From NCBI RefSeq assembly GCF_003018255.1, contig NZ_CP027440.1: 64,000 nucleotides of DNA; one strand, given 5' to 3'. The stretch is from Escherichia coli (GTDB taxonomy: Bacteria > Pseudomonadota > Gammaproteobacteria > Enterobacterales > Enterobacteriaceae). This document shows positions 31,589 to 34,500 of this stretch, one piece after another. Position numbers: made by a program. Position 1 is the stretch's first letter. Each line of letters starts with the position of its first letter.

Positions 31589-34500
31589 TTACTGATTTCT
31601 GGAGAAAATGCAATCAGCAGTTAATAACTCTGTCGCATAAGGTCATTTAGCGACCAGGAAATCCCGGCGGCATCATACCCTTCATGCTTCTCATCATCTT
31701 CGCCATTCCGCCCTTCTTCATTTTCTTCATCATGCGCTGCATGTCGTCGAACTGTTTCAGAAGACGGTTAACGTCCTGCACCTGCATACCGCAACCGGCA
31801 GCGATACGGCGTTTACGCGAACCTTTGATGATTTCTGGCTTAGCGCGCTCTTTCATCGTCATCGAGTTGATGATGGCTTCCATACGCACCAGCACTTTAT
31901 CGTCCATCTGCGACTTGACGTTATCCGGGATCTGCCCCATGCCCGGCAGTTTGCCCATCAGGCTGGCCATGCCGCCCATATTTTTCATCTGGCGCAGTTG
32001 CTCAAGGAAGTCATTGAGATCGAAGCCGTCGCCTTTTTTCAGCTTGCTGGCTAATTTCTCAGCTTGCGCGCGGTCAACTTTGCTTTCGATATCTTCGATC
32101 AGCGACAGTACGTCGCCCATGCCGAGAATACGGGAAGCGATGCGGTCCGGATGGAACGGCTCCAGCGCCTCGGTTTTCTCGCCAACACCGAGGAACTTGA
32201 TCGGTTTGCCCGTAATGTGACGAATAGAGAGCGCCGCACCGCCACGAGCATCGCCGTCGACTTTAGTCAGTACCACACCGGTCAGCGGTAACGCTTCATT
32301 GAATGCTTTTGCCGTATTGGCCGCATCCTGACCAGTCATGGCATCAACCACAAACAGGGTTTCAACCGGATTAATCGACGCATGGACTTGTTTGATCTCG
32401 TCCATCATCGCTTCGTCAACGTGCAGACGACCGGCTGTATCCACCAGCAGCACGTCGTAGAATTTCAGTTTGGCTTCTTTCAGCGCCGCGTTAACGATAT
32501 CTACCGGCTTCTGACCAACATCAGAAGGGAAGAAATCAACGCCCACCTGCTCTGCCAGCGTCTCAAGCTGTTTGATTGCCGCCGGACGATAAACGTCGGC
32601 AGAAACCACCAGCACTTTCTTCTTGTGCTTCTCGCGCAGGAACTTACCGAGTTTACCAACGCTGGTTGTTTTACCGGCACCTTGCAGGCCCGCCATCAGC
32701 ACGACCGCAGGCGGTTGCGCAGCCAGGTTCAGGGTCTGGTTCTCTTCGCCCATCGCCGCAACCAGTTCGTTACGGACAATTTTGACGAACTCCTGCCCCG
32801 GCGTCAGGCTCTTATTAACTTCATGACCAACCGCTTTCTCTTTTACGCGATTGATAAACTCACGCACTACCGGCAGAGCGACGTCCGCCTCCAGCAGCGC
32901 CATGCGCACTTCGCGCAGCGTATCTTTTACGTTGTCTTCAGTGAGGCGTCCACGGCCACTGATATTGCGCAGCGTGCGCGACAAACGATCGGTTAAATTA
33001 TCAAACATTGTCTCTCGCCTGGGGTGGAAACGGTTGGCCGCAATCGCGACACATCATCAGTATTTTGCCGCAGTATAACATGAAGGCGTCTTTGTTGTTA
33101 TGCAACGGTTGGAGCAGCGTTCACCTGACGCTATACTGCTTCTCTTTCTTATTGCTCAAACTGTCGACATTACTATGCCCGTTTTTGCTCTGCTCGCGCT
33201 TGTCGCCTACTCCGTCAGTCTTGCGCTGATTGTTCCCGGTCTGCTGCAAAAAAACGGCGGCTGGCGGCGCATGGCTATTATTTCTGCGGTCATTGCGCTG
33301 GTCTGCCACGCAATCGCTCTGGAAGCCCGCATCCTGCCCGACGGTGATAGCGGACAAAACCTCAGCCTGCTGAACGTTGGTTCATTGGTCAGTTTGATGA
33401 TCTGTACGGTAATGACCATTGTGGCTTCTCGCAATCGTGGCTGGTTGCTGCTACCCATTGTCTATGCCTTTGCGCTTATCAACCTGGCGCTGGCGACCTT
33501 CATGCCCAATGAATACATCACCCATCTGGAAGCAACGCCTGGGATGCTGGTGCACATTGGCTTATCGCTCTTTTCCTATGCCACGCTGATTATCGCCGCC
33601 CTGTACGCGCTGCAACTGGCGTGGATTGATTACCAACTGAAGAACAAGAAGCTGGCGTTTAACCAGGAAATGCCGCCATTGATGAGTATCGAGCGTAAAA
33701 TGTTCCACATCACGCAGATTGGCGTGGTGCTGCTAACGCTCACGCTTTGCACTGGCCTGTTCTACATGCACAACTTATTTAGCATGGAAAATATCGACAA
33801 GGCCGTGCTCTCTATCGTGGCGTGGTTTGTCTATATTGTGCTGCTGTGGGGACATTATCATGAAGGATGGCGTGGACGCCGCGTCGTCTGGTTTAACGTT
33901 GCGGGTGCAGTCATTCTGACACTGGCCTACTTCGGCAGCCGAATTGTCCAGCAGTTAATCAGCTAAACCCAGAAAAGGAGTTTCCCCTGGAACACATTTC
34001 TACTACTACGTTGATCATTATTCTGATCATCATGGTGGTCATTTCAGCCTATTTTTCCGGGTCCGAAACCGGAATGATGACCCTCAACCGCTATCGTCTG
34101 CGACATATGGCGAAACAGGGTAATCGCTCGGCCAAACGCGTCGAAAAATTGCTGCGTAAGCCAGACCGCCTGATTAGCCTGGTGTTAATCGGCAATAACC
34201 TGGTCAATATTCTTGCCTCCGCGCTAGGCACTATTGTTGGGATGCGTTTGTACGGCGATGCGGGCGTGGCAATTGCGACTGGTGTGCTGACTTTTGTCGT
34301 GCTGGTTTTTGCTGAGGTATTGCCGAAAACCATTGCCGCGCTGTACCCGGAAAAAGTCGCTTATCCGAGTAGTTTTCTGCTGGCTCCGCTGCAAATTTTG
34401 ATGATGCCGCTGGTCTGGTTGCTGAATGCTATCACCCGTATGCTGATGCGCATGATGGGTATCAAAACCGATATCGTGGTTAGCGGCTCTTTGAGCAAAG

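What the first reader, a model, noticed from the sequence alone, without database searches (positions are those of the whole stretch)
33987..34011. Possible CUG-initiated N-terminal extension of yfjD
The yfjD frame stays open upstream of the first ATG (34011); an in-frame CTG at 33987 sits 6 nt after GGAG (33977-33980), whereas the ATG at 34011 has no obvious Shine-Dalgarno. This would add eight residues (LEHISTTT) before the first TM helix.
Basis: seen in the sequence. Interest (0 to 1): 0.2.

Follow-up and report, generated by a model that had tools for sequence, protein, structure and literature searches.

The report
Known CTG start codon of yfjD
The CTG at 33987 is the real start codon of the E. 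coli membrane-transporter gene yfjD, one of very few bacterial genes that start on CTG, but this is already annotated in reference genomes and was confirmed by mutagenesis in a 2013 paper, so it is not new.

Summary
The sequence features are real. AAGGAG lies at 33975-33980, followed by a 6-nt spacer and an in-frame CTG at 33987. The eight codons from the CTG read (L)EHISTTT. One detail is wrong: 34011 is TTG, not ATG, and the first in-frame ATG is at 34032.

The curated K-12 MG1655 record (b4461) and all three PGAP E. coli records I opened start yfjD at this CTG (428 aa). EcoGene 3.0 (PMC3531124) reports that start-codon mutagenesis with protein fusions confirmed the CTG, and that mutating the formerly annotated TTG at codon 9 had no effect.

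My own tests agree:
- Anti-SD pairing is -8.2 kcal/mol before the CTG, versus +2.4 (TTG) and +0.6 (ATG).
- In 81 species genomes the start column is always NTG (CTG 42, TTG 27, GTG 12), with AAGGA 6-8 nt upstream.
- Codon 9 drifts like an ordinary Leu codon.
- 111 of the 120 closest homologues carry xEHISTTT.

A small extra: CTG co-occurs with the full AAGGAG and TTG/GTG with a shorter SD, over about five co-located switches. This suggests compensation.

Verdict: ordinary, already known, low interest.

The parts
33175..33966 (+). ypjD coding sequence (cytochrome c assembly family inner-membrane protein), the upstream gene on the same strand. Its TAA stop is at 33964-33966, 20 nt before the yfjD start.
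   Evidence: PGAP annotation of L001 (876-1667) mapped to window coordinates; sequence.
33975..33980 (+). Shine-Dalgarno sequence AAGGAG.
   Evidence: Sequence. Anti-SD duplex -8.2 kcal/mol. AAGGA is present 6-8 nt before the start codon in 81 of 81 species genomes.
33987..33989 (+). CTG (CUG) translation start codon of yfjD.
   Evidence: Annotated start in NC_000913.3 b4461 and in PGAP records. Confirmed by mutagenesis according to EcoGene 3.0. The start column is NTG in 81 of 81 species.
33987..34010 (+). First eight codons, (M)EHISTTT, the short N-terminal tail before transmembrane helix 1.
   Evidence: The peptide is present in 111 of the 120 closest homologues. Only synonymous third-position differences are seen among E. 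coli variants, E. albertii and S. enterica arizonae. The 428-position NCBIfam NF008604 model aligns from residue 1.
34011..34013 (+). TTG, codon 9 (Leu).
   Evidence: Sequence. No SD (+2.4 kcal/mol). In other species it reads CTG 59, CTC 8, TTG 7, CTA 4, CTT 3. Mutating it had no effect on expression according to EcoGene 3.0.
34032..34034 (+). First in-frame ATG, codon 16 (Met inside transmembrane helix 1). Some gene callers use it as a start ('MVVISA...').
   Evidence: No SD (+0.6 kcal/mol). The Pfam CNNM domain already begins at residue 11.
33987..35273 (+). yfjD (corB-like) coding sequence: 428 codons plus stop, encoding a CNNM / CBS / CorC_HlyC transporter.
   Evidence: ORF end. Pfam PF01595, PF00571 and PF03471. 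NCBIfam equivalog NF008604 scores 866.7 bits against a cut-off of 475.
35278..35305 (+). Terminator-like GC-rich hairpin just after the yfjD stop, lying between yfjD and the convergent grpE.
   Evidence: Consensus scan: 12-pair stem with 8 GC pairs, followed by a T-rich tail. A pattern match only.

Best explanation
CTG 33987 is the genuine, and probably sole, translation start of yfjD. yfjD encodes a CorB-like CNNM-family inner-membrane transporter.

How it most likely works: the 30S subunit is positioned by pairing of AAGGAG (33975-33980) with the 3' end of 16S rRNA. This places the CUG, 6 nt downstream, in the P site. Initiator fMet-tRNA reads the CUG with a first-position mismatch, so the protein begins MEHISTTT and then enters its first transmembrane helix.

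CUG is a poor start codon, giving roughly 1-2% of AUG activity in reporter assays. The site therefore depends on its strong, optimally spaced SD, and yfjD is probably translated at a low level. Ribosomes finishing ypjD 20 nt upstream may add to initiation by coupling.

What is shown: the sequence anatomy, the annotation, the conservation and the published mutagenesis result. What is inferred: the fMet identity of residue 1, the low expression level and the coupling to ypjD.
For: [quoted passage not shown] Mutating the previously annotated TTG at codon 9 had no effect on expression.
- Annotation: curated MG1655 b4461 and three PGAP records start at this CTG, giving a 1287-nt CDS. The NCBIfam equivalog NF008604 has 428 positions and aligns 1-427 to 1-427.
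- SD strength: anti-SD pairing is -8.2 kcal/mol before the CTG, versus +2.4 before the TTG and +0.6 before the ATG.
- Start column: in 81 species genomes the DNA pattern used to find them began after this codon, so the start column was unconstrained. It reads CTG 42, TTG 27, GTG 12, with TG invariant. Ordinary Leu codons in the same alignment have a non-G third base in about 20% of genomes.
- Boundaries: in 76 of 81 genomes no other in-frame NTG lies between the upstream in-frame stop and this codon.
- Peptide: xEHISTTT is present in 111 of the 120 closest homologues, which were found by full-length homology. Only synonymous changes occur in the eight codons across Escherichia and Salmonella.
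- Within E. coli: the 55 nt spanning the SD to codon 9 are identical in 4701 of 5425 genomes.
- CUG efficiency: 1-2% of AUG with sfGFP and 0.02-3% with NanoLuc (Hecht et al., bioRxiv 10.1101/063800).
Against: - The mutagenesis is cited in EcoGene 3.0 as unpublished results, so I could not inspect the primary data.
- I found no start-site ribosome-profiling or N-terminal peptide evidence for this gene. The Ribo-RET supplement is not held. yfjD is absent from the TetRP tables, which is neutral rather than supportive.
- CUG is intrinsically very weak, so minor initiation at the downstream TTG or ATG cannot be excluded from sequence alone.
- The invariance of codon positions 1 and 2 in the 81-genome DNA set is circular, because the search pattern required that peptide. 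Only the start column, the upstream region and the third positions are free there.
Confidence: 0.93

Rival explanations
1. Translation starts at TTG 34011 (the old annotation), and the upstream CTG with its SD is coincidental.
For: TTG is a canonical bacterial start codon. It is the first ATG/GTG/TTG in the open frame, so mechanical ORF finders pick it.
Against: - No SD precedes it (+2.4 kcal/mol).
- The codon is not conserved as a start: 15 of 81 species have CTC, CTA or CTT there.
- Mutating it had no effect on expression (EcoGene 3.0).
- The eight upstream codons are conserved as peptide and show only synonymous variation.
Confidence: 0.02
2. Translation starts at ATG 34032 (codon 16), as some automatic gene callers predict ('MVVISA...').
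For: It is the first AUG in frame. Nine of the 120 database homologues were called this way. Met at this position is conserved in every full-length homologue.
Against: - No SD precedes it (+0.6 kcal/mol).
- Starting there would remove the first five positions of the Pfam CNNM domain, which begins at residue 11, and roughly half of transmembrane helix 1.
- The truncated calls fit pipelines that do not allow CTG starts.
- The upstream codons are under coding constraint.
Confidence: 0.02
3. Dual initiation: the CUG is the main start, but a minor N-terminally truncated form is also made from TTG 34011 or ATG 34032.
For: CUG is weak. Dual starts are common in E. coli start-site profiling (PMC4909307; bioRxiv 10.1101/520783).
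Against: - Neither downstream codon has an SD.
- The TTG mutation had no measurable effect.
- A form starting inside transmembrane helix 1 would probably not insert properly into the membrane (inference).
Confidence: 0.04
4. The CTG with its SD is a chance arrangement in the ypjD-yfjD spacer and has no function.
For: Within this one window the statistics are modest. The chance is 1.4% per CTG, with 10 candidate upstream CTGs.
Against: NTG plus AAGGA at a fixed distance occurs in 81 of 81 species, while the sequence further upstream varies freely. Published mutagenesis also argues against chance.
Confidence: 0.01

Closest known systems
yfjD (b4461) CTG start as annotated in E. coli K-12 MG1655 and described in EcoGene 3.0 (Zhou & Rudd, NAR 2013, PMC3531124)
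   Same: It is the same site. The K-12 sequence is identical from the CTG for at least 100 nt, with the same SD, the same CTG and the same 428-aa product.
   Different: Nothing of substance. The window comes from a non-K-12 E. coli: the 601 nt around the start are 98.7% identical to the K-12-derived strain DH5alpha.
[quoted passage not shown]
   Same: A chromosomal E. coli gene whose only start is a CUG read by the initiation machinery.
   Different: An unrelated protein (a regulator of DnaA) at a different locus. I did not examine its SD or its conservation here.
infC and pcnB AUU starts (from my own knowledge, not tested here)
   Same: Rare non-NUG or near-cognate starts that give low expression. 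For infC, expression is sensitive to IF3.
   Different: These use AUU rather than CUG. Autoregulation by IF3 is demonstrated for infC, whereas no regulation is known for yfjD.
Start-codon / SD compensation (Belinky, Rogozin & Koonin 2017, PMC5622118)
   Same: In yfjD orthologues the weakest start (CTG) goes with the full AAGGAG, and TTG/GTG go with a shorter SD. This matches the reported tendency for weaker starts to be paired with stronger SDs.
   Different: That study found switches to CUG to be extremely rare (1-2 events among thousands of starts). In this one gene family CTG is the commonest state and has switched about six times.

Membership tests
Functional non-AUG (CUG) bacterial translation start | An in-frame near-cognate codon preceded by a Shine-Dalgarno sequence at working distance (about 5-9 nt). 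| tested here: met
   AAGGAG, 6 nt, CTG. Anti-SD duplex -8.2 kcal/mol.
Functional non-AUG (CUG) bacterial translation start | The position is conserved as a start codon (NTG) in orthologues, unlike an internal sense codon. | tested here: met
   81 of 81 are NTG (CTG, TTG or GTG). Codon 9 and other Leu codons drift to CTC, CTA and CTT. Four further genera give 2 CTG and 2 TTG.
Functional non-AUG (CUG) bacterial translation start | The sequence between this codon and the next candidate start is under protein-coding constraint. | tested here: met
   xEHISTTT occurs in 111 of 120 homologues. Only synonymous differences are seen across Escherichia and Salmonella. The NF008604 model covers residue 1 onward.
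Functional non-AUG (CUG) bacterial translation start | Mutating the codon abolishes expression, while mutating the alternative start does not. | not testable with these tools
   Reported as met in EcoGene 3.0, citing unpublished data of Dague and Rudd.
Functional non-AUG (CUG) bacterial translation start | An initiating-ribosome footprint at the codon, or an N-terminal peptide beginning with (f)Met at that codon. | not tested
   The Ribo-RET supplement is not held. yfjD is not in the TetRP tables. The N-terminal tryptic peptide is 35 residues long and includes transmembrane helix 1.
CNNM / CorB (HlyC/CorC family) transporter | A CNNM (DUF21) transmembrane domain, then a CBS pair, then a CorC_HlyC C-terminal domain. 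| tested here: met
   PF01595 at residues 11-184 (E 8e-54), PF00571 at 278-326, PF03471 at 344-418. NCBIfam equivalog NF008604 scores 866.7 bits against a cut-off of 475.
IF3-responsive regulatory start (infC type) | Expression from the non-canonical start changes with IF3 level or activity. | not testable with these tools
   No data. Considered only as a speculative reading.

The most novel reading that the evidence does not exclude
The weak start may be a conserved expression-setting device rather than an accident. Across Enterobacteriaceae the yfjD/corB start codon is kept non-AUG. When it is the weakest codon (CUG), the SD is strengthened to AAGGAG, which would hold output at a low set point. 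A more speculative version: because initiation at CUG depends on IF3 discrimination, and possibly on Mg2+, synthesis of this putative Mg2+/Co2+ transporter could respond to translation-factor or cation status.
Probability: 0.12. Interest if true: 0.4.

Novelty: already known. Interest (0 to 1): 0.1.

Why it matters
For this scan it matters little. The site is in the reference annotation and was reported as experimentally confirmed in 2013.

It is a useful positive control, because the first-stage reader recognised a true CUG start from raw sequence alone.

It is also a reminder that gene callers which exclude CTG still mis-start this gene. Nine of the 120 database homologues are truncated to 'MVVISA...'.

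The cross-species coupling between start codon and SD in this gene is a clean single-gene illustration of compensation between translation signals.

Tried and rejected
- **Ribo-RET (Meydan et al.):** the preprint text does not mention yfjD and no supplementary tables are held. My guess at the PMC id failed.
- **TetRP (PMC4909307):** yfjD/b4461 is absent from the held supplementary tables of alternative and re-annotated starts. This gives no evidence for or against; the gene may not have been expressed enough to score.
- **Other papers:** the Salmonella riboproteogenomics paper and the PIRT-seq paper do not mention the gene.
- **RNA folding:** folding from -40 to +40 around the start gave -12.2 kcal/mol with z = -0.64, no different from shuffles. 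I propose no structural element.
- **Promoter scan (32900-35400):** no plus-strand sigma-70-like site was found. The scan is too crude to define the ypjD-yfjD transcription unit.
- **"Never ATG":** I considered this as a strong claim and rejected it. With only about six inferred switches, the absence of A has a chance of (2/3)^6, about 0.09. One Cronobacter-like genome (L086) has an ATG one codon upstream of its TTG.
- **First phylogenetic count:** it contained one misaligned sequence (L038). I repeated it without that sequence.

Full report
**1. What is in the sequence**

The window reads ...CAGCTAAACCCAGAAAAGGAGTTTCCC CTG GAA CAC ATT TCT ACT ACT ACG TTG ATC ATT ATT CTG ATC ATC ATG GTG....
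- The TAA at 33964-33966 ends the upstream gene ypjD.
- AAGGAG lies at 33975-33980.
- Six bases later comes an in-frame CTG at 33987.
- The frame is open back to a TAA at 33894. Between that stop and 34011 the only NTG codon is this CTG.

One detail is wrong. 34011-34013 is TTG, not ATG. The first in-frame ATG is at 34032, which is codon 16 counted from the CTG.

Pairing with the 16S rRNA 3' end is -8.2 kcal/mol upstream of the CTG, +2.4 upstream of the TTG and +0.6 upstream of the ATG.

**2. Is it more than chance?**

Within the window, 1.4% of all 2669 CTG triplets have pairing this strong in the 20 nt before them. There are 56 mechanical ORFs of at least 150 aa. Ten in-frame CTGs lie upstream of their first canonical start, and only this one has a strong SD. 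That is suggestive but not decisive. The comparative data below settle it.

**3. It is the annotated and published start**

A 601-nt query around the site matches 5425 of 5426 complete E. coli genomes.
- In the 100%-identical record NZ_CP033635.1, PGAP places the yfjD CDS at locus 1688-2974. That maps to window 33987-35273, so the CDS begins on the CTG.
- The curated K-12 MG1655 record annotates b4461 yfjD at 2748774..2750060 (1287 nt, 428 aa). The first codon is CTG in an identical context.
- Two divergent E. coli records are annotated the same way.
- The NCBIfam equivalog model NF008604 has 428 positions and aligns 1-427 to 1-427 of the CTG-started protein. This probably explains why PGAP calls a start that most gene finders cannot.

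EcoGene 3.0 (PMC3531124, section 'CTG start codon verification') makes four relevant points:
- The CTG start of yfjD was predicted from sequence conservation and inspection of ribosome-binding sites.
[quoted passage not shown] The TTG at 34011 is that codon 9. The experimental data are cited there as unpublished.

**4. Independent comparative test**

A search with the 428-aa protein returned orthologues from Salmonella, Citrobacter, Enterobacter, Leclercia, Kosakonia, Cronobacter, Atlantibacter, Cedecea and others, mostly 428-429 aa.
- 111 of the 120 listed begin (M/L)EHISTTT or a one-residue variant (EHISTTA, EHISTTV, DHISTTT, EQISTTT).
- Nine are truncated calls that begin MVVISA, at the ATG of codon 16.

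I then scanned one genome per species with a degenerate DNA pattern for the peptide. The pattern begins after the start codon, so the start column and everything upstream were unconstrained.

| Feature in the 81 genomes recovered | Result |
|---|---|
| Start column | CTG 42, TTG 27, GTG 12; TG invariant; no ATG |
| AAGGA upstream of the start | 81 of 81, 6-8 nt before it |
| Sequence further upstream | Varies freely |
| Ordinary Leu codons in the same alignment | Non-G third base in about 20% of genomes |
| Codon 9 (the E. coli TTG) | CTG 59, CTC 8, TTG 7, CTA 4, CTT 3 |
| No other in-frame NTG between the upstream stop and the conserved NTG | 76 of 81 |

Codon 9 therefore behaves as a normal Leu codon, not a start.

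A caveat applies to this set. Invariance of codon positions 1 and 2 in the eight codons is circular, because the pattern required that peptide. The non-circular coding evidence is the protein set and an alignment of E. coli variants, E. albertii and Salmonella arizonae. In that alignment every difference within the eight codons is a synonymous third-position change, and AAAGGAGTTTCCCCTGGAAC is invariant.

Within E. coli, the 55 nt from the ypjD stop through codon 9 are identical in 4701 of 5425 genomes.

**5. The protein**

Pfam finds three domains: CNNM/DUF21 (residues 11-184), CBS (278-326) and CorC_HlyC (344-418). The protein is a CorB-like CNNM-family transporter. A structural paper lists E. 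coli yfjD (P37908) next to Salmonella CorB in its family tree.

The eight residues form a short uncharged-to-acidic tail before transmembrane helix 1. A start at codon 16 would cut into the CNNM domain.

**6. Mechanism**

- Shown: a strong, optimally spaced SD, a conserved NTG, and loss of expression on mutating the CTG (from the literature).
- Established knowledge: bacterial initiation on near-cognate codons uses fMet-tRNA, so residue 1 is Met, not Leu. Hecht et al. report Met as the N-terminal residue in the vast majority of the synthesized proteins they analysed. They also found that CUG initiates at 1-2% of AUG with sfGFP and 0.02-3% with NanoLuc. IF3 is the factor that discriminates against such codons.
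- Inferred: yfjD is translated at a low rate that depends on the SD. Ribosomes terminating at the ypjD stop 20 nt upstream may add to initiation by coupling.

RNA folding around the start is unremarkable (z = -0.64). A terminator-like hairpin follows the stop codon at 35278-35305.

**7. Rivals**

- A start at TTG 34011: no SD, not conserved as NTG, and no effect when mutated.
- A start at ATG 34032: no SD, and it would truncate the domain.
- A minor second proteoform cannot be excluded from sequence, but nothing supports it.
- Chance is excluded by the conservation.

**8. Something extra, noticed on the way**

In the orthologues, CTG goes with the full AAGGAG (41 of 44 genomes). TTG and GTG go with AAGGA followed by A, C or T (41 of 41).

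On a rough neighbour-joining tree of 900 nt of coding sequence from 71 genomes, CTG versus other switched 6 times and the SD class 7 times. The combined state changed only 8 times, so about five switches fall on the same branches. A clade-level Fisher test gives 7e-4.

This fits the compensation between weak starts and strong SDs described genome-wide by Belinky et al. That study also found switches to CUG to be extremely rare.

The absence of ATG among 85 genomes is not significant given so few switches (about 0.09). One Cronobacter-like genome has ACG-to-ATG one codon upstream of its TTG.

**9. Verdict**

- The finding is already known and annotated.
- Interest is low.
- The only mildly new material is the start-codon/SD covariation in this gene family.

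Noticed in passing
window 33975-33989; loci L003-L083 and L086-L089: In yfjD orthologues the start codon and SD strength covary. CTG goes with AAGGAG (41 of 44), and TTG/GTG go with AAGGA[A/C/T] (41 of 41). About five switches fall on the same branches of a rough gene tree. The exceptions are L023, L040 and L088 (Atlantibacter), which combine CTG with a short SD.
   Followed up: partly
L086:291-306: A Cronobacter-like genome reads AAAGGACAAT ATG TTG GAA, where C. sakazakii (L087) has ACG TTG. This natural variant has an ATG one codon upstream of the usual start, and the gene is called as a 430-aa protein beginning MLEHISTTT.
   Followed up: partly
window 35274 onward, compared with L001:2975-3601: Strain ECCNB12-2 (NZ_CP033635.1) is identical to the window around the yfjD start but diverges immediately after the yfjD stop codon. 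It carries a DUF6630-family gene where the window (like K-12) has the terminator hairpin and grpE. This looks like a strain-specific insertion between yfjD and grpE.
   Followed up: no
L085:268-296 (equivalent to window ~33966-33974): E. coli ChlosBP-23-1 has a 9-nt duplication (CCCCAGTAA) in the ypjD-yfjD spacer just upstream of the SD. The SD and the CTG are intact.
   Followed up: no
window 33100-33175: The mechanical ORF for ypjD begins at an ATG at 33100 (288 aa), but PGAP and K-12 annotate a 263-aa protein starting at 33175. This is another start-site ambiguity in the same operon.
   Followed up: no
window 33987-34091: The N-terminal tryptic peptide of YfjD is 35 residues long and contains the whole first transmembrane helix (first Arg at residue 35).
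   Followed up: yes
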